Positions 2,691 to 63,998 of a stretch of 64,000 nucleotides of DNA are shown here, in pieces; position 1 is the first letter of the stretch; every line of letters starts with the position of its first letter. Made by a program: the position numbers and the translations under genes. The notes under the pieces were generated by a model, which did not search any database, had not been told where the DNA came from, and saw only the letters and a program-made list of their open reading frames with translations. The stretch comes from a virus, in IMG/VR virus record IMGVR_UViG_3300042549_002989, positions 5,195-69,194 of that record; one strand, given 5' to 3'.

Positions 2691-3819
2691 TCTTAATAAA
2701 CCAGCAAACAATGCGAAGGCTCTTGGTAAGTTGCTTGAAGTATTAGAACGACAAAACATTGATATCAATGAAATTGGTTCTGTCAAGCGTGTATCTATTT
2801 ACCAATCTTTAACAAAAGATGCTGACGGTGAAGCACAAATACATGACTTAAGTGCTATTCAGTTCTCACCCAAGTGGGCAGAAGGTCCTGAATGGAATCC
2901 TGTTCATCAGGGACCAGCAGTTAAGTTGCCACCTGTAAAAGTTACAAAAAGTAACAAGCAAACAGAATGGAACACAGCAGTAGTTCTTCCTGATATGCAG
3001 ATTGGTTATTTCCGTAACTCACACGGTGAGTTAGAGCCGATACATGATGAAGCGGCTATTGACATTTGTATTGCAATGATTAAGGATTTGAAGCCTGAAA
3101 AAGTTGTTATGCATGGTGACAACTTGGATTTTGCTGAGTTTGGTAAATACCGACTTAGTCCTGCTTATGCATTGACGACTCAAAAGTCCATTGATTACGC
3201 CACTATTTTGTGTGCTCGCCTTCGTGCAGTAGCACCTGATGCTGAAATTGTTTGGCTTGCAGGTAACCACGAAGAACGACTTGTTAACTACACATTGGAC
3301 AATGCTAAGGCTTCGTTTGGTCTGAGGCGTGGAGACACCCCAGATAACTGGCCTGTGTTATCTGTTCCATTCTTGTGTCGTTTTGATGACTTTAATGTTA
3401 AGTATGTTCCTGGCTACCCTGCTGGTTACTACTGGATTAACCAGAAGTTGAAAGTTATCCACGGTACTCGTGTTAAGAGCAATGGCTCTACAGCACACAT
3501 GTATTTGGCTAATGAGAAGACATCAGTTCTTTATGGACATATTCATCGCCGTGAATGGGCTGAAGTAACTCGTGAAGACTACGATGGTCGCAAAACTATT
3601 CTTGCCGCCTCCGCTGGTTGTCTTGCTCGTGTAGATGGTGTTGTACCTTCCACTAAGGGTGGTATTGACCTTGATGGTCGTCCAATGACTATCACTGAGA
3701 ATTGGCAACAAGGTCTCTGTGTGGTGACATACAAAGACGGTGACGCCGAATTCAATCTTGAGATGATCCCTATTCGTGATGGTTGGGCGATGTACCACAA
3801 CAAGGAATACAAAGCATAA
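2656..3819 (+). CDS. Calcineurin-like metallophosphoesterase
   Basis: PDMQ, GDNLD, GNHE, IHG and GHIH motifs in canonical order. Confidence 0.85.
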   Translation: MESALVSDLASDLNKPANNAKALGKLLEVLERQNIDINEIGSVKRVSIYQSLTKDADGEAQIHDLSAIQFSPKWAEGPEWNPVHQGPAVKLPPVKVTKSNKQTEWNTAVVLPDMQIGYFRNSHGELEPIHDEAAIDICIAMIKDLKPEKVVMHGDNLDFAEFGKYRLSPAYALTTQKSIDYATILCARLRAVAPDAEIVWLAGNHEERLVNYTLDNAKASFGLRRGDTPDNWPVLSVPFLCRFDDFNVKYVPGYPAGYYWINQKLKVIHGTRVKSNGSTAHMYLANEKTSVLYGHIHRREWAEVTREDYDGRKTILAASAGCLARVDGVVPSTKGGIDLDGRPMTITENWQQGLCVVTYKDGDAEFNLEMIPIRDGWAMYHNKEYKA

Positions 3820-27979: not shown

Positions 27980-28480
27980 ATGTCAACAAAATTTGGCGGT
28001 CCTTTCCTAGCCTTTCCCCGATGGGTACTGCCCTACCTTCAGGGAGATTCCACGGCAAAAGCAGTCCTTTTGGAGTTGTTGACTTATATGAAAGCCGAGT
28101 CCCAGAGCACCACCACCTCGTACAAATACATTGCTGATCAGGTGGGGTGTGACCGAAGGACTGTCATTCGTGCTATCGCCCGTCTAGAGGCCACAGGAGT
28201 GCTCATACGGCGTCATAGAGGCACCAATGGTCACAATATGACCAATAGGTTCATAATCAACTTTAACAACCCTGCTGTGCTTTTGGCTGAGGAGGTAGTG
28301 TCACCCATGACACTAGGTGGTGACACCCATGACACTACCCCTAGTGACACCAGTGACACTACCCCTAGTGTCACCCATGACACCCAAATAAGAACTAATA
28401 ACAAGAGTTATAAAAAGAGTAACCATAACAAGAGACCGATTCAGGACTATGAAGACCTAGAGGTGGATAATCGGATATGA
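27980..28480 (+). CDS. Replication initiator with winged HTH (lambda O-like organisation)
   Basis: SYKYIADQVGCDRRTVIRAIARLEATG wHTH; contains iterons; upstream of a DnaC-like gene. Confidence 0.8.
   Translation: MSTKFGGPFLAFPRWVLPYLQGDSTAKAVLLELLTYMKAESQSTTTSYKYIADQVGCDRRTVIRAIARLEATGVLIRRHRGTNGHNMTNRFIINFNNPAVLLAEEVVSPMTLGGDTHDTTPSDTSDTTPSVTHDTQIRTNNKSYKKSNHNKRPIQDYEDLEVDNRI
28298..28435. repeat. Putative replication origin: four 16-bp iterons plus an A-rich tract
   Basis: GTG(T/A)CA-N4-TGACAC at 28298, 28320, 28344 and 28368, followed by A-rich 28386-28435. Confidence 0.8.
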
Positions 28481-51367: not shown

Positions 51368-51737
51368 CTACAGAACTTCTATTTTAGAAGAAGCAATTCA
51401 ACTTATTAATGGTGACCGTAACGATGCTTACGGCGATCCTGTGGACGACTTTAAGACCACAGCATCACTGTGGCAAACATACTTGTCTCGCACTATGGAG
51501 GCACGAGGTCATTTGGTATTGATGCCACATGACATAGCAGTCATGATGGACTTGTTAAAGATTGCACGAATCTCGTGGTCTCCTGAAAAAAGAGACCATT
51601 GGGCTGACCTTGGGGGATACACAGGTCTTGGCTGGGATTGCGTTAATCGCCAAGAGGTACCCATCGCCTGCTTCTACTGCGACAACGGGTACCTCTGTGA
51701 CTGTGGTGGGGCTGAATCAGCGCAGGAACGGCTTTGA
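51357..51737 (+). CDS. DUF6378-like all-alpha protein (nucleotide pyrophosphatase-like fold)
   Basis: ILEEA..LINGDR..YGDP..F...W...LKIAR...D..GY. Confidence 0.75.
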   Translation: MSDNYRTSILEEAIQLINGDRNDAYGDPVDDFKTTASLWQTYLSRTMEARGHLVLMPHDIAVMMDLLKIARISWSPEKRDHWADLGGYTGLGWDCVNRQEVPIACFYCDNGYLCDCGGAESAQERL

Positions 51738-52106
51738 TTGCTTGATTGACTTAGCGACATCCACTTCGTCTTCGCTGATGCGTCCAACGAGTAGTTCTGC
51801 TTCAAGTCGTGTTTTGTCAACCTTCTCAACAACAATGCGTTTCCATTGAGCAGGCTTCAGGAGTCCTTTAAGGACTTCCTCATTCCACGCAACGGTGTTG
51901 GACTGCACAAGATTGAGTTTGCCGATCTCGGTCTCAACCTTTGTGAGACCAGCAGACTGAAACTCAGCAATGATGATGGAGTCAAGAGATTTAAGTCTCT
52001 CGGTAAGTTGCTCAAGTTCATCCTTCATACGGATGCGCTCAGAAACGATGGTGGACAGGGACGGGTTGACTTCCGTAATACGGTCAGTCGTTGGGTTAGT
52101 TGCCAT
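51717..52106 (-). CDS. Gam/Gp157-like protein, lone minus-strand gene (leaderless)
   Basis: Coiled coil plus EKVDK..L..L; -10 TAAGGT 7 nt upstream. Confidence 0.6.
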   Translation of the reverse strand: MATNPTTDRITEVNPSLSTIVSERIRMKDELEQLTERLKSLDSIIIAEFQSAGLTKVETEIGKLNLVQSNTVAWNEEVLKGLLKPAQWKRIVVEKVDKTRLEAELLVGRISEDEVDVAKSIKQSKPFLR

Positions 52107-52167
52107 AGGAGCAACCTTATCTGGGGAGTGTGTCATTACACAACCTCACTTTCTATTTGGAGATTTA

Positions 52168-52572
52168 ATGGATACAGAATGGCGTAGAGAGGCTCTATGC
52201 CTTAAGAGGAACAATGTGTTTTGGTTTCCACCTGTTGAGGCAGAGGCACCAGAGCACTATTACGCCGTAGCACGAGAGGTCTGTAAGCACTGCCCTGTGT
52301 GGAAACTGTGTCTAGAAGACGGTCAGAACGAACGCTGGGGCATGTGGGGTGGTCTAACGCCCAAAGATAGGCAGGGAGTCAAAGACAACAAACAGTCGTT
52401 GCTGAAGGCTCATGGATCGTGGGTGCGCTATCGCCAAGGCTGTGGCTGTGAATTATGCACTAACGACCACAATGAACAAATGGAGAATGTAAAACTGAAC
52501 ATGTCGTGTATTCCGTACATGAATGAGCCAGTGGAAGATATATCAACAGTTAGGTATGGGCTTCTCTACTAA
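52168..52572 (+). CDS. whiB: WhiB-family transcription factor with extra C-terminal HG..Y..GCxCxxC motif
   Basis: W...ALC, CKHCPVWKLC and GMWGGLT motifs. Confidence 0.9.
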   Translation: MDTEWRREALCLKRNNVFWFPPVEAEAPEHYYAVAREVCKHCPVWKLCLEDGQNERWGMWGGLTPKDRQGVKDNKQSLLKAHGSWVRYRQGCGCELCTNDHNEQMENVKLNMSCIPYMNEPVEDISTVRYGLLY

Positions 52573-52591
52573 ACCCCTATAGACTTGATAC

Positions 52592-52656
52592 AGAGACCCA
52601 TACCAAGGCTTTACCCCTGAGCACCCCCCTGCTCTCTTGGTGTGGGTCTCTTGTTA
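52592..52656 (+). ncRNA. Candidate structured RNA/leader with C-rich loops
   Basis: -10 TAGACT at 52580; 16-bp stem 52592-52607/52636-52651 enclosing UUUACCCCU and GAGCA-CCCCCC-UGCUC. Confidence 0.5.
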
Positions 52657-53480: not shown

Positions 53481-53622
53481 GCGATACACATGTCCTGACT
53501 GTCGTCAGTTTGTAGAGGTCGGCGTAAAGTTAGTGGCACCACCAACACACAAGTGCCCACGACACGCCAACAAGGTGCGTGTAATGACTCCAGTGACAGA
53601 AGAAAAGCCCCCCACCGATTAG
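53470..53622 (+). CDS. Small zinc-ribbon protein (50 aa)
   Basis: CPDC...HKC..H. Confidence 0.55.
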   Translation: MKFERYTCPDCRQFVEVGVKLVAPPTHKCPRHANKVRVMTPVTEEKPPTD

Positions 53623-53640
53623 GCAGGGGGCTACTTCTTG
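53601..53640. terminator. Bidirectional intrinsic terminator between convergent blocks
   Basis: AGCCCCC/GGGGGCT stem with an A-run on the left and a T-rich run on the right. Confidence 0.65.
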
Positions 53641-58979: not shown

Positions 58980-59435
58980 TTATTCAGTTGGCACGCCATT
59001 GACCATTGTGCATGACATGGTTTCTAGGAAGTGCTCAAATAATTCGTTCTCGTCTGCTACCTCATTAGTAAAGATGACCAGCAGTCCGTCTTCGTCAGTG
59101 CCCACTTGTAGTTTTGGGAATGTCTTTTTCAATTCTAAAATTGCGTCAATCTCAACGGGAATATAAGAATCTACTTTGATCTCTATGTTGCTATCCCAAG
59201 GCTCGGTGGTCACGAAGTAACCGATGCGATTTACATGCGCTATCCCTGTGATTATGTAAGTGCCATCTTCACCGTCTACCCATGTCCACACACGGTTGTC
59301 ATGCTGATTACACACGAAGGCATACTCATCGTCATAGGTCTCAAACATGAGACCGTTCCATGAAGCGTCAGGGACTAGGTGGTTGGTGATGGGCTTGTAG
59401 ATTTCTTCCCATTGGTCGGTTGTTAGTTGTGTCAT
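58980..59435 (-). CDS. Hypothetical protein
   Basis: FETY..E...VWT...G.A.VNRIGYFVT; AAAGGA SD. Confidence 0.7.
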   Translation of the reverse strand: MTQLTTDQWEEIYKPITNHLVPDASWNGLMFETYDDEYAFVCNQHDNRVWTWVDGEDGTYIITGIAHVNRIGYFVTTEPWDSNIEIKVDSYIPVEIDAILELKKTFPKLQVGTDEDGLLVIFTNEVADENELFEHFLETMSCTMVNGVPTE

Positions 59436-59467: not shown

Positions 59468-59550
59468 GGGCAAGTGCCCTCAGAACGCTCAGGACGGCTC
59501 CTAAGCGCTCTGAGGACACCACCGACACCCAAGGGTGCCGATGATGTCCC
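59468..59550 (-). ncRNA. Triple-hairpin leader element, copy A
   Basis: H1 16 bp (59514-59549), H2 21 bp (59474-59519), H3 GGGC/GCCC; adjacent arms overlap; G-U pairs only on the minus strand. Confidence 0.7.
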
Positions 59551-59557
59551 AAGGTCG

Positions 59558-60046
59558 TTACCAGCGTTCTGGCGTGGCGTACTCAATGCCCCAGTCAAGG
59601 TCAATGAACCATTCCTCATTGAACTGGACACGGGTGTCACCACTGCTGATTGCTCTGCCGAGGGCTTCTTGTTCCTCTGCATTGAGGTAGTAGAAGATGT
59701 CCACATCGGGTACACCGAAGATGTCTTTTTCCATTGGCTCGTTGCGATGGTCAAAGACCTCATCGGAAAATGACACATAGACATTCTGTGTGCTGTCATC
59801 ATCACTGTCGTCTGTCCAATGGATGGACACGACAGCACCGATGGCACCAGCAACGATGTAGCCATTGGAATCAGCGTGACGAGTGTTGATGTTTCGTGCG
59901 ATGCGTAGACGGCGTCCGTCCGTAGCGTCATTAATCAACTCCCATTCTCTGTCCGTCCAGTTGGTGGTGTCAAAGACACCAATGCCATCGGCATCTCCGT
60001 AGTTACCATCGCTGGCGAAATAGTGTTGTTGTTGTTGCTTGGTCAT
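59558..60046 (-). CDS. Acidic hypothetical protein
   Basis: YFASDGNYGDA...DT..WT..EW; second half D.DIFYY. Confidence 0.7.
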   Translation of the reverse strand: MTKQQQQHYFASDGNYGDADGIGVFDTTNWTDREWELINDATDGRRLRIARNINTRHADSNGYIVAGAIGAVVSIHWTDDSDDDSTQNVYVSFSDEVFDHRNEPMEKDIFGVPDVDIFYYLNAEEQEALGRAISSGDTRVQFNEEWFIDLDWGIEYATPERW

Positions 60047-60047
60047 G

Positions 60048-60488
60048 TTATTTACCTTCCTTAAAGTTGTTGAACCATTCGTGACCGTTGATGTCGGTCA
60101 GTAACTCATAGAACTGGAAGAGGTTTACACCTCGTATACCTTCTATGGATTCCACGACATCTTCTCGTGGGGAATACTCGTATTCTTCAATGATGACGAC
60201 ATCAGCAGATCCTTTCTCTACAAGAGCAAGGATGTCAGCAGGTGTAAGACCGTCTGTGATGAGGTCATCAACATTGCACAGGTGGTGTTCCAGTGAGCAC
60301 TTCAGTGCGAACTCTTTTAGTTGCTCGTATGAGTATGACTGGGGCTGAATGTCTTCGTGACGGACTGCCCAGCCTTTACCAAGGTCTGCATTGATGTCAT
60401 TGAGAACGCTCTTGATAGCGATGTCAATGAATTGGTTTGCTGGCACTTCATCGGGGTGCTCAACAGTGATTAGTAGTTGTGTTTTCAT
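60048..60488 (-). CDS. Hypothetical protein
   Basis: AGGAG SD before the ATG at 60488. Confidence 0.65.
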   Translation of the reverse strand: MKTQLLITVEHPDEVPANQFIDIAIKSVLNDINADLGKGWAVRHEDIQPQSYSYEQLKEFALKCSLEHHLCNVDDLITDGLTPADILALVEKGSADVVIIEEYEYSPREDVVESIEGIRGVNLFQFYELLTDINGHEWFNNFKEGK

Positions 60489-60524
60489 GTGGTGTTCTCC
60501 TAGTGGTTGGTTGTTGGTGCTTGT

Positions 60525-60620
60525 GGACATGCGTCCCTTGAGCACTGGGATACGGGAAAGGGGGAAACCGTACCCCAGTACCCAAGGCACGCCACGAGGG
60601 TTCACCCCGTGACGCCACCC
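60525..60620 (-). ncRNA. Triple-hairpin leader element, copy B
   Basis: H1 11 bp (60589-60615), H2 20 bp (60536-60587) with UUUCCCCCUUUC loop, H3 GGAC/GUCC. Confidence 0.7.
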
Positions 60621-60639
60621 TGAGCACCACCTCAGATTG

Positions 60640-62181
60640 TTAGCCGACCCAGTCGGACAAGAGCGCTGATACAAGAGAGTCTGTGTCAGCGTTCAAGTCT
60701 TCAGCGAAGCCGTCAAGCACTGCACTGAGCACTTCTTGCTTCGCATTGAGTAGGGCGAAAAGTCGCTCATCAATAGTGTCTGAGCCGTTCTTGCGTGCAC
60801 CAATGAGGTGATGACAAGTCACGGATGATTCCTGCGATATACGGTGGCATCTATCTTCTGCCTGTGTGAGCGATGCAGGTGTCCACGGATTCTCCACGGA
60901 CACCCACTGGTTCGCACGAGTGAGCGTAAGACCGACACCAGCAGACTCGTAGTTGCCTACGAACACTGACGCACGACCTGATTGGAAGTCGTCAACTGCT
61001 GACTGCTTGTCTGCATCTTTCATTCCACCAAGCACCGACACGACATTCCATCGTGGGTCTTTGGTAGAGCGTGCCTGACACTCATCAATGATTGCATTGA
61101 GCACTGAGCGATGGTGACCAAACACCACGACAGGTTCATCTGTTTCAATGATGGACTCAATGTAATCAATGGCGTGCTTAACCTTTGCCTTAGCGATTGC
61201 CTGACGCATTGCTGTCAACTTGGTGATGGTCTCAGCACGAGATGCCTTGAGGACAGCCTCACGACCACCCTTGTCCCATACCCAAGCGAGGAAGTCGCCC
61301 TCAATGCGTAGGTACTCACGCAACTCAACATCGCTCAACTCAATGGCAACAGATGCACGGCGCTTCGCTGGCAACTCCTTGAGCACATCTTGCTTGCGCC
61401 TACGGATGTAGCAAGTGCCACGCAACTTGGCGTGTAACTCTGCACTGTTGGTAGAGCCATTGAATGTCCACCCAAAGTCATTCTTGACTGGGTCGCAGTA
61501 GTTCCACTTGAACGAACCAGCCGAGCCGAAGACAGGCTTCAGCGTGCCGATGATGTCAAGCAGTGCTACTAACTCCACTGGACGGTTGACTGCTGGTGTA
61601 CCTGAAGCAAGCACGACATACCCATCCTTTGGAATGCCCTGTGCGATGCCATAGAGCGCCTGTGTGCGCTTGCTCTTGGGGTTCTTGAAGCGATGTGCCT
61701 CATCCACAAGCAACGCTCCGAAGGACTCTTTGGTGAGTGCCTTAGCCCAGCCGACAAGCCCAGCGTCACCAATGACGGTGACCTGAGCACCTGACAGTGC
61801 GTAGGGCTTCGTTGACTCAAGCACCTCAACAGTGACCACACTGTTGGTGAACTTGGCAATCTCACGCTCCCAGTTGAGGCGTAGTGATGGTGGCACGCTG
61901 ATGAGGACACGGTGACCCTCCTCAACAGCCTTGACAGCGACTGCGATGAGTTGTGGTGTCTTACCGAGACCCATCTCATCACCGAGCAGTACACGGCGTT
62001 GCTTGAGTGCATACGCCACGCCAGCACGCTGGTATGGCAACAGTGGCAACGCAAGATCAAAATTAAGGTCGTAGTCGTGTGCGCTGGACAGTGATGTCAG
62101 TTCGGGGCAGACATCTTGAGGTAGTTGAACCTTGACGGACTCGGCAAGCAAGTCGTCAAGGGATGAACGAAAATTAGACAT
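60640..62181 (-). CDS. SNF2/HARP-like helicase (second copy)
   Basis: LLPYQ, DEMGLGKT, DEAH, SGTP, GVGLTLT and QAEDRCHR motifs. Confidence 0.92.
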   Translation of the reverse strand: MSNFRSSLDDLLAESVKVQLPQDVCPELTSLSSAHDYDLNFDLALPLLPYQRAGVAYALKQRRVLLGDEMGLGKTPQLIAVAVKAVEEGHRVLISVPPSLRLNWEREIAKFTNSVVTVEVLESTKPYALSGAQVTVIGDAGLVGWAKALTKESFGALLVDEAHRFKNPKSKRTQALYGIAQGIPKDGYVVLASGTPAVNRPVELVALLDIIGTLKPVFGSAGSFKWNYCDPVKNDFGWTFNGSTNSAELHAKLRGTCYIRRRKQDVLKELPAKRRASVAIELSDVELREYLRIEGDFLAWVWDKGGREAVLKASRAETITKLTAMRQAIAKAKVKHAIDYIESIIETDEPVVVFGHHRSVLNAIIDECQARSTKDPRWNVVSVLGGMKDADKQSAVDDFQSGRASVFVGNYESAGVGLTLTRANQWVSVENPWTPASLTQAEDRCHRISQESSVTCHHLIGARKNGSDTIDERLFALLNAKQEVLSAVLDGFAEDLNADTDSLVSALLSDWVG

Positions 62182-62207
62182 TGTGTCTCCTTGTTGTAGT
62201 TGGTGCT

Positions 62208-62296
62208 CAACGGGCGAGGGTATCGCCCTCACCAACCACTCACAACTTGTGAATGGATAGTGAGGGCGCCACGGGCGAACCCGTGACACCCCGTTG
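62208..62296 (-). ncRNA. Triple-hairpin leader element, copy C
   Basis: H1 12 bp with UUCG loop (62264-62291), H2 21 positions (62224-62268), H3 6 bp (62212-62228), closing CAACGGG/CCCGUUG. Confidence 0.75.
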
Positions 62297-63040
62297 TCAC
62301 GCTGGCACAGAGCGATTCAGAATCTCTCGTGCCTCTTTGGTTGTTGGGTACCACCAGCCGTTGTTGCCAGCACAGGTTGCCCCGTACCCAACAGCAAGTG
62401 ATGTGTCTTCGCTGAGGTCACGACCACAGCACACACAGAAGCCATAGGTCTTGCCGAGTGATGACGCCTCTTCTTGAGTGAGAAGAGTGCCAGTCGCACG
62501 CACGATGTTGACGCCACCTTTCCAGTATTCCAGCCCACCGACACCGTCTTCAATGACAAGACGGCGCATAGCGAGATAGCCATTCTGTGTGGTGTAGGCG
62601 ATAGCGATGGTGCCGTCTTCACAACGGTACGCACGCTTCGCCTCAACCTCAATGAGATTCTCATGCACTGCTGGTGCAGGTACAGACTCAGGTGCAGGTG
62701 CACCACACGCACCAAAGGCGTGGTATGTCTGCCAGCCTGAAGCGAGTTGTACGCACCAGCCTGTCTGAGACTCTACGGAACCTTTACAGAGCGCACAGGG
62801 CTTGCTGTATCGGTTGACAATAGTGCGACCTTTGGGAAGGTGCGCATGCTCAGGGTTGTCAGGCTTCGGTATGGCGAGCAACTTCTCAATGACAGCGCTT
62901 GCTGACTGACCAGTGAGTCGGTCAATGCCCTTGTCACGGATGTATGCGTCAATGTCATCAATGCCGAGTACTGACTGACGCTCCGTGAGTAATGAGCGTA
63001 TGAATGATTGTTGCTTGGGTGTGATGGTGCTTGCTGACAT
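62297..63040 (-). CDS. Multi-zinc-finger protein with DUF6011-like C-terminus
   Basis: TPKQ..FI N-terminal helix; CALC...H..C; CVCCGRDL...S...GYG.TC. Confidence 0.75.
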   Translation of the reverse strand: MSASTITPKQQSFIRSLLTERQSVLGIDDIDAYIRDKGIDRLTGQSASAVIEKLLAIPKPDNPEHAHLPKGRTIVNRYSKPCALCKGSVESQTGWCVQLASGWQTYHAFGACGAPAPESVPAPAVHENLIEVEAKRAYRCEDGTIAIAYTTQNGYLAMRRLVIEDGVGGLEYWKGGVNIVRATGTLLTQEEASSLGKTYGFCVCCGRDLSEDTSLAVGYGATCAGNNGWWYPTTKEAREILNRSVPA

Positions 63041-63232
63041 TTATTTTCCTTTCAAGATGTCGGTAGGGATGCAGTAATGCTTGCCTTGGTATGACTGGTT
63101 GACGACAACGCCGTCACATTTTTGGTGGAACTCATACGAGTTTTTTACAACGACAAAAAGAGTCGCTAGTAAAACGCCAAGTGTGAGTAGCAGTACAGCA
63201 AGGATTGTGTTTTCGGTGGTTGATTCTTTCAT
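63041..63232 (-). CDS. Small single-TM protein
   Basis: Hydrophobic helix, then C....C; AGGAG SD. Confidence 0.6.
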   Translation of the reverse strand: MKESTTENTILAVLLLTLGVLLATLFVVVKNSYEFHQKCDGVVVNQSYQGKHYCIPTDILKGK

Positions 63233-63241
63233 TGGTTTCTC

Positions 63242-63556
63242 CTATTGGTTGATTAGTTGTGTATTGGTTGACAAGAGTTCCCATCCGATGTGGTCACACA
63301 AGTAGAGGTTGCCGTCAACCTCTACCGTGTCACCTACAGACAATGCTGTGTGCGTGCGCTTGCCGTTGTCAGGAAGAACTGGCTCCAAGATGTCCCACAG
63401 ATCACCTTCGTAAAGGTTCGTGTCACGGAACACCTTCTCGCACAGGATGATGTCGTCCACTGGTGGTGCGTCATACTGGATAGTTGCTGATGTTGCCTGT
63501 CGTGATGGTGTGTCTTCGTGGCAGAAGGCTTTCCATGTAATGGTGATGGTTTTCAT
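63242..63556 (-). CDS. YodL-like domain protein
   Basis: HTALSVGDTVEV...YLCD.IGW. Confidence 0.65.
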   Translation of the reverse strand: MKTITITWKAFCHEDTPSRQATSATIQYDAPPVDDIILCEKVFRDTNLYEGDLWDILEPVLPDNGKRTHTALSVGDTVEVDGNLYLCDHIGWELLSTNTQLINQ

Positions 63557-63573
63557 TGTTGCTCCTTTATTGG

Positions 63574-63897
63574 TTAGGCGAACACGAGTTCACCGAAGAA
63601 CCCGTACTGCCATATTTGGTCATGGTCGTAGTGGTCGGTCTCAAGGTCACGCAACTCTTCCCAGTCGCCACCGTTCTCAAGCCATTGCTCAATGCCCTTG
63701 AGAGCAGTTGCATTGTCGTACACGAATGTGAGTCCGTCAGTCTTAATGACGATGTCGTTGTTGTCATCGTAAGACACTTCGTATTCATCCTCTACCCAGT
63801 AGCGAGTGCCATTGGACAGTTTGAGGTAGGCGAGCACCTCTTCGGGCACTGTCACTGTGTAGGTGACGGTTATTTGATGTCGTGTGGTAGTGGTCAT
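63574..63897 (-). CDS. Acidic hypothetical protein
   Basis: D...D.I.QYG.FGELVF ending; AAAGGAG SD. Confidence 0.7.
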   Translation of the reverse strand: MTTTTRHQITVTYTVTVPEEVLAYLKLSNGTRYWVEDEYEVSYDDNNDIVIKTDGLTFVYDNATALKGIEQWLENGGDWEELRDLETDHYDHDQIWQYGFFGELVFA

Positions 63898-63916
63898 TGG
63901 TTCTCCTTTGTTGGTT

Positions 63917-63998
63917 GAGCAGATGCTCACAGAAGGCACCGAGCGCTAACCCGATGCCCTCTGTGAGCACCACGAGGCAGGGGGCGCCTCGTGATGCC
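63917..63998 (-). ncRNA. Triple-hairpin leader element, copy D (5' edge at window end)
   Basis: H1 12 bp (63967-63997), H2 20 bp (63924-63969), H3 GAGC/GCUC. Confidence 0.7.

What the first reader, a model, noticed from the sequence alone, without database searches (positions are those of the whole stretch)
59468..63998. A repeated structured-RNA motif: four sequence-divergent, structure-identical triple-hairpin leaders
Seen: four minus-strand intergenic gaps (59468-59550, 60525-60620, 62208-62296, 63917-63998) share one architecture. Hairpin 1 is 11-16 bp and always contains RUCAY paired to GUGGY with a fixed U-G wobble. Hairpin 2 is a constant 20-21 bp. Hairpin 3 is 4-6 bp. Then come 19-36 nt of A/C-rich leader with the SD and ATG. 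Stem sequences differ almost completely between copies while pairing is kept (natural covariation). Nearly all non-Watson-Crick positions are G-U on the transcribed strand and would be A-C on the other, which argues for selection on single-stranded structure rather than simple DNA palindromes. None has a U-tract. Known: T7 places RNase III hairpins ahead of its early genes, and about 20 bp is an RNase III-sized helix. Inference: a phage-specific processing, stability or translation-control module that I cannot match to a named family.
Basis: partly seen in the sequence, partly recalled or inferred. Interest (0 to 1): 0.85.

Follow-up and report, generated by a model that had tools for sequence, protein, structure and literature searches.

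The report
Three-hairpin RNA spacers between phage genes
An uncultured lake-water phage of actinobacteria separates groups of its early genes with a conserved, about 100-base, three-hairpin RNA module that most likely marks where the long early message is cut and capped, a familiar phage design in a new and untested sequence family.

Summary
All four gaps fold far better than shuffled controls (z -4.7 to -7.3). They are the four most stable 60-nt windows of the 69-kb record, on the minus strand only.

A covariance model finds 44 copies, all on the gene strand. They occur only in the early block of about a dozen related uncultured phage contigs.

Pairing is kept through compensatory changes: 92% of cells paired against 70% in shuffles, and 20 of 23 pairs changed on both sides. 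G-U outnumbers A-C 142 to 8, so selection acts on the sense strand.

The copies are not "almost completely" different. The stem bases and a leader motif are conserved.

No Rfam family matches. My searches listed no paper that describes these hairpins. The elements carry no U-tract terminator and no promoter-like site.

Best reading, untested: intercistronic processing and stability punctuation of the early mRNA by host RNase III, as in T7 and SP82. A built-in alternative pairing could cap the cut ends.

This scan already reported the same family on other DNA (e1-6055896, e1-5844852).

It is a new variant of a known kind, of moderate interest.

The parts
63917..63998 (-). Element W1. Hairpin 1 is 63995-63969 (11 bp; base extendable to 63998/63966). 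Hairpin 2 is 63968-63925 (20 bp, tetraloop). Hairpin 3 is GAGC/GCUC at 63928-63917. The contig ends 2 nt upstream.
   Evidence: CM hit 65.9 bits
63895..63916 (-). W1 leader: A/C-rich, with SD AAAGGAG and ATG at 63897 of a 107-aa gene.
62208..62296 (-). Element W2, directly after the stop of the DUF6011 gene. Hairpin 1 is 62291-62264 (12 bp). Hairpin 2 core is 62263-62229 (15 bp with one U.U mismatch at 62235). Hairpin 3 is 62228-62212 (6 bp).
   Evidence: CM hit 69.7 bits. Contigs of 4 of 4 runs carry the base that turns the U.U mismatch into U.G.
62179..62207 (-). W2 leader with the GAGCACCAAC word, SD AAGGAG and ATG at 62181 of the SNF2 helicase gene.
60525..60622 (-). Element W3, 17 nt after the SNF2 stop. 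Hairpin 1 is 60611-60593 (7 bp; longer in the other fold). Hairpin 2 is 60592-60531 (24 bp with one bulge, 12-nt loop). Hairpin 3 is GGAC/GUCC at about 60534-60522. An outer helix GGUGGUGCU/AGCACCAAC is possible.
   Evidence: CM hit 41.9 bits. The same subtype follows SNF2 in all relatives.
60486..60524 (-). W3 leader with the AAGCACCAAC word, SD UAGGAG and ATG at 60488 of a 146-aa gene.
59468..59554 (-). Element W4. Hairpin 1 is 59549-59514 (16 bp). Hairpin 2 core is 59513-59480 (15 bp; long form about 59519-59474). Hairpin 3 is 59479-59468 (4 bp).
   Evidence: CM hit 71.5 bits
59433..59467 (-). W4 leader: A/C-rich, with SD AAAGGAA and ATG at 59435 of a 151-aa gene.
53606..53632 (-). Canonical hairpin plus U-tract terminator at the end of the same minus-strand block. 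It is given for contrast and is not part of the element family.

Best explanation
The four elements are copies of one cis-acting RNA module of about 90-125 nt. It is transcribed as part of a long early polycistronic mRNA of an uncultured myovirus whose WhiB gene points to an actinobacterial host.

Each copy fills the gap between a stop codon and the next ribosome-binding site, and so divides the operon into sub-messages.

Proposed mechanism (inferred):
- The central helix, about two turns long in its long form, is cut by the host's RNase III.
- The segments at the base of that helix then re-pair with their alternative partners. This lengthens hairpin 1 at the new 3' end of the upstream message and forms hairpin 3 at the new 5' end of the downstream message.
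- Both products are thereby capped against exonucleases, while the A/C-rich leader and SD stay open for ribosomes.

Shown: the structure, its selection on the sense strand, its position, its restriction to the early block, and the two covarying alternative pairings.

Inferred: transcription as one message, cleavage, the enzyme, and the refolding.
For: Structure and selection
- The folds are far more stable than shuffles, and on the sense strand only.
- RNAalifold on a plain MAFFT alignment of 23 copies gives 17 of 23 pairs with compensatory changes.
- On 36 distinct copies, 92.4% of cells pair against 70.5% in shuffles and 38-47% in slid controls. There are 180 compensatory cells against 57.7 +/- 6.7.
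- G-U 142 against A-C 8.

Distribution
- All 44 strong CM hits lie on the gene strand.
- They lie in one block of about 6-7.5 kb per genome, with none elsewhere in two complete 94-95-kb records.
- 29 of 31 copies start -1 to 19 nt after a stop, and 32 of 32 end within -6 to +19 nt of the next start.

Fit to RNase III
- The long form of hairpin 2 is 18-22 bp in 36 of 36 copies. The ideal RNase III substrate is 22 bp, two helical turns, and T7 has five such signals in its early precursor (passages of PMC3867540).
- SP82 supplies a Gram-positive precedent (passages of PMC4838370).
- The phages encode no RNase III or dsRBD of their own (0 of 5 records). The same search rings in the actinobacterium Corynebacterium glutamicum.

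Two folds
- Both alternative base pairings covary.
- They are near isoenergetic: difference 0.55 +/- 1.97 kcal/mol, and 30 of 36 copies lie within 3 kcal/mol.

Not a terminator
- True operon-end terminators in these phages carry U-tracts, while the elements do not.

Population variant
- In contigs of 4 of 4 runs, a variant repairs the single mismatch in hairpin 2 of W2.
Against: - There are no RNA data. No transcript ends, no cleavage assay and no host are known.
- Hairpin 2 is an almost perfect helix. By my recollection, the T7 signals carry an internal loop that directs a single cut. A perfect helix would be cut on both strands, and the capping model then needs the lower stem to melt.
- The substrate rules of actinobacterial RNase III are not known to me.
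- The conserved sequence of hairpin 1, with its near-invariant U-G, is not explained by a pure length-ruler enzyme and hints at another partner.
- Near-isoenergetic folds follow partly automatically once the four base segments are similar.
- The covariation alignment A5 was fitted to the model, and the copies are related, so shuffle controls overstate significance.
Confidence: 0.5

Rival explanations
1. Uncut stability barrier or insulator. The very stable hairpins are not cleaved. They block 3'-to-5' exonucleases and uncouple neighbouring cistrons, giving segment-specific mRNA half-lives, as REP/BIME elements or intercistronic stem-loops do in bacterial operons (recalled from general knowledge).
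For: - Very stable structures at stop-to-SD gaps.
- Selection on the sense strand.
- No enzyme-specific feature was shown.
Against: - It does not explain why the long central helix keeps to 18-22 bp in 36 of 36 copies.
- It does not explain why two alternative base pairings covary.
- It does not explain why three hairpins rather than one are kept.
Confidence: 0.2
2. Protein-binding regulatory RNA. Hairpin 1, with its conserved GGCRUCAC/GUGGYGCC helix and U-G wobble, is the docking site of a phage or host protein that controls elongation, translation or decay of each sub-message. It would be put/nut-like or operator-like.
For: - The primary sequence of hairpin 1 is conserved while its top varies.
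- The wobble is U-G in 29 of 36 distinct copies and never U-A.
Against: - 4-7 copies are spread over about 6-7.5 kb rather than one or two next to a promoter.
- No conserved candidate partner gene lies next to the elements.
- No RNA-binding family was found in the block.
Confidence: 0.12
3. Recombination cassettes or selfish repeats. The elements persist mainly because they mediate gene shuffling between phages, or spread by gene conversion, like PeSL cassettes of T4-type phages. The RNA fold would be secondary.
For: - Gene content between elements differs among relatives.
- W1 and its G001 counterpart are 85% identical, while blastn found no match for the genes just downstream of them.
- Two copies in L030 are identical in the aligned columns except at the last three positions, and the sequence just upstream of them and the genes that follow differ.
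Against: - Compensatory changes and the G-U bias need selection on structure.
- No promoter-like hexamers lie in the elements, although PeSLs are composite terminator/promoter motifs (abstract of PMC4122927).
- Variant contigs diverge from the window at ordinary gene junctions (63552/63575, 63251) and not at the elements. No joint between elements was seen.
Confidence: 0.08
4. DNA-level or single-stranded-DNA signal: cruciform, ssDNA priming or initiation site, or nuclease or recombinase site on the sense strand.
For: - G-T wobbles are also tolerated in ssDNA hairpins.
- All copies lie in one co-oriented block, so transcription and a strand-specific DNA process cannot be separated by orientation alone.
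Against: - Exact placement between stop codon and SD in 29 of 31 and 32 of 32 cases fits a message-level role.
- The plus strand folds about 10-17 kcal/mol worse, so a double-stranded cruciform would be asymmetric.
- No associated nuclease or transposase family was seen in the block.
Confidence: 0.05
5. Intrinsic terminators or attenuators that set a polarity gradient along the operon.
For: Strong GC-rich hairpins sit between genes.
Against: - No U-tract follows any element, and none is called terminator-like.
- The same phages end their operons with canonical hairpin plus U-tract terminators.
- There is no room for a new promoter before the next SD.
Confidence: 0.03

Closest known systems
RNase III processing signals of the phage T7 early polycistronic mRNA (five signals in a precursor of about 7000 nt; passages of PMC3867540)
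   Same: - Several hairpins of about two helical turns lie between cistrons of a phage early operon transcribed by the host polymerase.
- No terminator tail follows them.
- The next ribosome site lies just downstream.
- The host enzyme is presumed, because the phage has none.
   Different: - There is no sequence relation.
- The module has three hairpins rather than one.
- The central helix is nearly perfect, without the internal loop of T7 sites (recalled).
- Hairpin 1 has a conserved sequence.
- Two alternative base pairings covary.
- Cleavage has not been shown.
[quoted passage not shown] I saw these only as citations in passages of PMC4838370, not the papers themselves.
   Same: A repeated, conserved hairpin family in the early mRNA of a phage of a Gram-positive host, processed by host RNase III.
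   Different: The SP82 sequences were not on hand, so no comparison was made. The host phylum differs, and the three-hairpin layout is not known to me from SP82.
PeSL (promoter-early stem-loop) cassettes of T4-type phages (abstracts of PMC4122927; PMC2839356, listing only)
   Same: - Short repeated intergenic cassettes in the variable early regions.
- Copies within one genome can be near identical.
- Neighbouring gene content is mosaic.
   Different: - PeSLs are composite terminator/promoter motifs. Here no promoter-like site and no U-tract was found.
- Here there is strong structural covariation.
- Breakpoints seen in population contigs lie at other junctions.
The same family as reported earlier by this scan (e1-6055896; probably e1-5844852)
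   Same: A three-hairpin covarying module of about 100 nt, in four copies in the early arm of uncultured actinobacterial phages. e1-6055896 shares 45 of 114 short words with locus L021 of relative G001.
   Different: - This is another genome of the same phage group.
- This report adds the strand-bias count, whole-record censuses, the test of the two alternative pairings, the absence of a phage RNase III, and population variants.

Membership tests
T7-type RNase III processing signal | Lies between cistrons of a polycistronic phage early mRNA | tested here: met
   29 of 31 copies start -1 to 19 nt after a stop, and 32 of 32 end within -6 to +19 nt of the next start. That the block is one transcript is inferred from co-orientation, short gaps, and the single U-tract terminator at 53632-53606.
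T7-type RNase III processing signal | Double-helical element of about two turns (about 20-22 bp) | tested here: met
   The long form of hairpin 2 is 18-22 bp in 36 of 36 distinct copies. The size criterion comes from passages of PMC3867540.
T7-type RNase III processing signal | Internal loop that directs a single cut (feature recalled, not from a call) | tested here: not met
   Hairpin 2 is continuous, with at most one mismatch or bulge.
T7-type RNase III processing signal | Cleaved by host RNase III in vivo or in vitro | not testable with these tools
   No RNA run holding this DNA was listed, and the host was not identified.
Intrinsic (Rho-independent) terminator | GC-rich hairpin followed at once by a U-tract | tested here: not met
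   No terminator-like call lies at any element. The block's real terminator at 53632-53606 has a U-tract.
PeSL cassette | Composite early promoter plus stem-loop terminator | tested here: not met
   No sigma-70-like site lies on the minus strand inside any element. The region holds 6 sites against 10.9 +/- 2.8 expected. Actinobacterial promoters may escape this consensus.
PeSL cassette | Sits at indel or replacement breakpoints between related phages | tested here: inconclusive
   Gene content between elements differs among relatives. Population contigs, however, break at other junctions.
REP/BIME-type repeats | Many copies in both orientations across a genome, linked to a RAYT transposase (recalled) | tested here: not met
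   44 of 44 strong hits share one orientation and one block. No transposase family was found in the ten block proteins searched.
Any Rfam family | Score at or above the family's gathering threshold | tested here: not met
   0 matches over the 64-kb window. In E-value mode there were 5 matches, all far below threshold; the best was mir-1278 at 28.2 against 61 bits.
HK022 put / lambda nut antitermination RNA | One or two copies just downstream of the early promoters (recalled) | tested here: not met
   4-7 copies per genome are spread over about 6-7.5 kb, each after a coding gene.

The most novel reading that the evidence does not exclude
The module is a self-contained 'cut, refold and cap' device. 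Four short segments (a, a', a, a') at the bases of the three hairpins allow two near-isoenergetic folds.

One fold presents a helix of about 21 bp, long enough for RNase III. The other shortens that helix to about 16 bp and closes hairpins 1 and 3.

Cleavage, or possibly a regulator that tips the balance, would convert each junction into a 3'-capped upstream message and a 5'-capped downstream message. The phage could thus set the processing and half-life of every early sub-message from the RNA sequence alone. Two-state punctuation of this kind has not been demonstrated for any phage, as far as my searches show.
Probability: 0.25. Interest if true: 0.65.

Novelty: new variant of a known kind. 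Interest (0 to 1): 0.45.

Why it matters
Post-transcriptional control in phages of Actinobacteria, and in uncultured freshwater phages in general, is almost unexplored.

A strongly covarying, multi-copy RNA module that is absent from Rfam gives a clean handle on how such phages partition a long early message. The two covarying alternative pairings make a specific prediction about where RNA ends should map.

It also gives annotators a marker for the early operon of this phage group. It could serve as a compact insulator part for synthetic operons in actinobacteria if cleavage is confirmed.

It does not open a new category. T7 and SP82 established the principle decades ago, and this scan has met many analogous hairpin families.

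Tried and rejected
Searches that led nowhere
- Rfam in gathering and E-value modes found no family.
- Megablast of the region against cultured phages found no match.
- tblastn of the SNF2 helicase against cultured phages: the best listed identity was 36%, so no cultured relative is available.
- Sequencing runs: no RNA holder was listed. All strong holders are lake-water DNA metagenomes.
- Laying contigs of four runs showed no joints between elements.
- Host identification with WhiB found no relative. With RecA the only hit was a 34% match in a Eubacteriaceae MAG, which is uninformative.
- The metagenome scan with the SNF2 alignment added only 3 loci.
- I planned a motif scan of the genome collection and dropped it. 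Any pattern that fitted at least half of the copies had too few fixed bases to be specific.

Readings rejected
- Terminator and PeSL-type promoter-terminator readings.
- REP-like repeats.
- A phage-encoded RNase III or dsRBD protein: 0 of 5 records.
- A tRNA-like or RNase P reading of the ACCA-containing leader. I considered it by eye and dropped it because the distance from hairpin 3 is not fixed.

Literature
- Five full-text searches listed no paper that describes these hairpins. Searches targeted actinobacterial phages.
- Supplementary files were not consulted.
Full report
**Context**

The window is bases 5195-69194 of a 69,194-base IMG/VR virus record estimated 73% complete, and the window ends at the contig end. 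The record has 45% G+C.

It encodes an SPP1-type portal, a tail sheath, family A DNA polymerase, DnaB, RecA, WhiB, a transglycosylase-like protein and SpoVS. It is therefore a myovirus, and its WhiB gene points to an actinobacterial host. Near-identical DNA occurs in about 20 lake-water metagenome runs.

Most genes lie on the plus strand. A minus-strand block runs from about 53255 to the contig end. That block holds an SNF2 helicase, a DUF6011 protein, a DUF932 protein and many ORFs without family. The finding lies in the upstream 4.5 kb of this block.

Yes.

- The four gaps fold with z-scores of -7.27, -5.75, -4.65 and -7.30, and 0 of 200 dinucleotide shuffles do as well.
- A 60-nt sliding fold of the whole record places the four elements as the four most stable minus-strand windows (-44.2 to -38.3 kcal/mol; next best -33.8). 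The same places on the plus strand reach only -25.6 to -28.2.
- Each of W2-W4 starts 0-17 nt after the upstream stop; W1 has no listed upstream ORF because the contig ends there. All four run to the SD of the next gene.
- Hairpin coordinates are listed under parts.

**Relatives**

The SNF2 helicase served as anchor. It led to a complete 94,013-base relative, G001 (83% identical helicase), and then to 80 viral loci.

In G001 the four strongest sense-strand hairpins of the whole genome are again four such elements.

A plain MAFFT alignment of 23 copies from six contigs aligned well, which already shows shared primary sequence. RNAalifold predicted 23 pairs on it, 17 of them with compensatory changes.

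I built a covariance model from this alignment and searched 1,274,547 bases in 90 sources. It gave 68 matches at E <= 1.

- 44 are strong (E <= 5.5e-9), and all 44 lie on the gene strand, in 12 sources.
- 20 are weak opposite-strand echoes at the same places.
- 4 are marginal: L030:3905 and L096 at 17.8 bits, and L061/L081 at 13.5 bits.
- All strong hits are in contigs whose SNF2 is at least 59% identical to the window's.
- None is in the loci at 49% identity or less (L033-L104 and L006-L008).

Whole-record searches give these gene-strand copies:

| Record | Copies |
|---|---|
| G000 | 4 |
| G001 | 4 |
| G005 | 7, plus one weak |
| G006 | 4 |
| G007 | 4 |

In every record the copies lie within one block of about 6-7.5 kb.

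**Covariation and strand bias**

The 44 hits comprise 36 distinct rows.

| Measure | Observed | Shuffles | Slid controls |
|---|---|---|---|
| Cells that pair | 92.4% | 70.5 +/- 1.1% | 38-47% |
| Compensatory cells | 180 | 57.7 +/- 6.7 | 31-53 |
| Pairs changed on both sides | 20 of 23 | 14.9 +/- 1.4 | 8-16 |

No shuffle of 500 reached the observed values.

Caveats: this alignment was fitted to the model, and the copies are related. The independent MAFFT-based result points the same way.

In the modelled pairs, G-U cells number 142 and A-C cells 8. Drift in a DNA palindrome should give the two in similar numbers. Selection therefore acts on the sense strand as a single strand.

Hairpin 3 was not in the model. 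It exists in all 36 copies; for four post-SNF2 copies the script found none because of an alignment offset, and GGAC/GUCC is seen by eye. It covaries as GGGC/GCCC, GAGC/GCUC and GGAC/GUCC, with longer variants.

**Corrections to the description**

- The copies are not almost completely different. The window's four copies share 42-54% of aligned positions.
- The family keeps GGCRUCAC and GUGGYGYC in hairpin 1, CUCASAG and UGAGGGC at the base of hairpin 2, and an AGCACCAAC-like word in the leader. Only the stem tops are free to vary.
- The wobble in hairpin 1 is U-G in 29 of 36 distinct copies, C-G in 6, G-C in 1, and never U-A.
- The elements are spacers inside an operon and not 5' leaders. In G001 a divergent non-coding region of about 1 kb and a 60-codon ORF precede the first copy.

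**Two folds**

The 3-5 nt at the 3' base of hairpin 1 can pair in two ways.

- They can pair with the 5' base of hairpin 1: columns 8-42 and 9-41 pair in 36 of 36 copies, and column 7-43 in 23 of 36.
- Or they can pair with the nucleotides just after hairpin 2: columns 41-118 and 42-117 pair in 36 of 36, and column 43-116 in 31 of 36 with three Watson-Crick types.

Those later nucleotides are also the 5' arm of hairpin 3. The module therefore has two forms:

- Form A: a long hairpin 1, a 15-17-bp hairpin 2 and hairpin 3.
- Form B: a short hairpin 1 and an 18-22-bp hairpin 2.

Constrained folding puts the two forms within 0.55 +/- 1.97 kcal/mol of each other. 30 of 36 copies lie within 3 kcal/mol, on totals of -43 to -64 kcal/mol.

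**What it is not**

- No Rfam family matches.
- No element carries a U-tract or is called terminator-like. The block's end, and operon ends in relatives, carry canonical hairpin plus U-tract terminators.
- No sigma-70-like promoter lies in the elements, so they are not PeSL-type promoter-terminator cassettes (abstract of PMC4122927).
- They are not scattered in both orientations like REP repeats.
- The phages encode no RNase III domain and no dsRBD: 0 of 5 records, two of them complete. The same searches ring in bacterial control genomes, including Corynebacterium glutamicum.

**Evolution**

- The copy that follows SNF2 is a distinct subtype, kept at that position in every relative.
- The copy before SNF2 is present in the window, L028, L040 and L032, but absent in G001 and L030.
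- L030 has six consecutive gene junctions with very similar copies. Two of them are identical in the aligned columns except at the last three positions, while the sequence just upstream of them and the genes that follow differ. Copies can therefore spread or homogenise.
- Gene content between elements is mosaic among relatives.
- Contigs from four lake metagenomes that diverge from the window do so at ordinary junctions (63552/63575, 63251), and no element-to-element joint was seen. A role in shuffling is therefore possible but not shown.
- The same contigs carry C instead of A at 62235 in 4 of 4 runs. On the RNA strand this turns the single U.U mismatch in hairpin 2 of W2 into U.G.

**Mechanism**

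The best-supported reading is intercistronic punctuation of the early mRNA of the T7/SP82 type.

An ideal RNase III substrate is 22 bp, two helical turns, and T7's early precursor of about 7000 nt carries five processing signals (passages of PMC3867540). B. subtilis RNase III cuts phage SP82 early mRNA (citations in passages of PMC4838370).

I propose the following sequence of events.

- Form B is the substrate.
- After the cut, the freed base segments re-pair as in form A.
- This caps the upstream 3' end with a lengthened hairpin 1 and the downstream 5' end with hairpin 3, and it helps the two halves part.

This would explain why both pairings covary. It borrows the 'cut, refold and protect' idea noted by earlier agents of this scan on other phages (e1-6075576, e1-5993312).

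None of this has been tested. There are no RNA data, no cultured relative and no identified host. The conserved sequence of hairpin 1 may instead mark a protein partner.

**Novelty and verdict**

My five full-text searches listed no paper that describes these hairpins (targeted actinobacterial phages), and Rfam has no such family. The principle, however, is classical.

This scan already reported the same family on another genome: e1-6055896 shares 45 of 114 short words with L021, and e1-5844852 probably describes it too. It has also reported many analogous hairpin families.

I rate it a new variant of a known kind. The RNA-level nature is close to certain. The RNase III mechanism stands at about even odds.

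Noticed in passing
In an RNAduplex scan of the whole record, the leaders of W1 (-28.6 kcal/mol) and W2 (-28.0) are among the best non-self targets (mean -13.4, sd 3.7). Several unrelated places score as well.
   Followed up: partly
window 63552-63575: A 3809-nt contig of run X17 carries about 307 extra bases at the junction between the 107-aa and 104-aa genes, with the 24-nt SD-bearing junction present on both sides. Contigs of three of the other runs also leave the window at 63552, 63575 or 63251. Small genes are thus swapped at ordinary gene junctions in the natural population.
   Followed up: partly
L021 2055-2141 (= G001 82055-82141), outside the window: Three GTGAC-N4-GTCAC palindromes lie within 90 bp of the divergent non-coding region upstream of the early block; 0 of 200 shuffles reach three. 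They look like operator sites. The window's contig ends before the equivalent region. The half-site resembles the GUCAC of hairpin 1, but in the opposite arrangement.
   Followed up: partly
window 52591-52650 and 53606-53632: A long hairpin that folds on both strands lies downstream of the plus-strand whiB-type gene (51970-52572), near the plus/minus strand switch. A canonical U-tract terminator ends the minus-strand block.
   Followed up: no
window 28311-28370: A cluster of interleaved direct and inverted GGTGTCAC / TAGTGTCAC words (-30.2 kcal/mol on the minus strand), near the start of the replication genes. It may be an iteron or origin-like region.
   Followed up: no
L006 5781-5840: In a distant relative (SNF2 37% identical), three tandem copies of a short hairpin (GGGGGTCAGAAGTTGACCCCC type) lie about 400 nt downstream of the helicase match. 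They fold equally on both strands, so they are a different kind of repeat.
   Followed up: no
window 51646-51705 (-) and G001 3756-3815 (+): In each genome, a strong hairpin specific to the strand of the early block (-33.8 and -35.0 kcal/mol; -17.6 on the opposite strand in G001) lies within the genes of the oppositely oriented block. The two hairpin sequences look unrelated. This may be an antisense RNA or chance.
   Followed up: no
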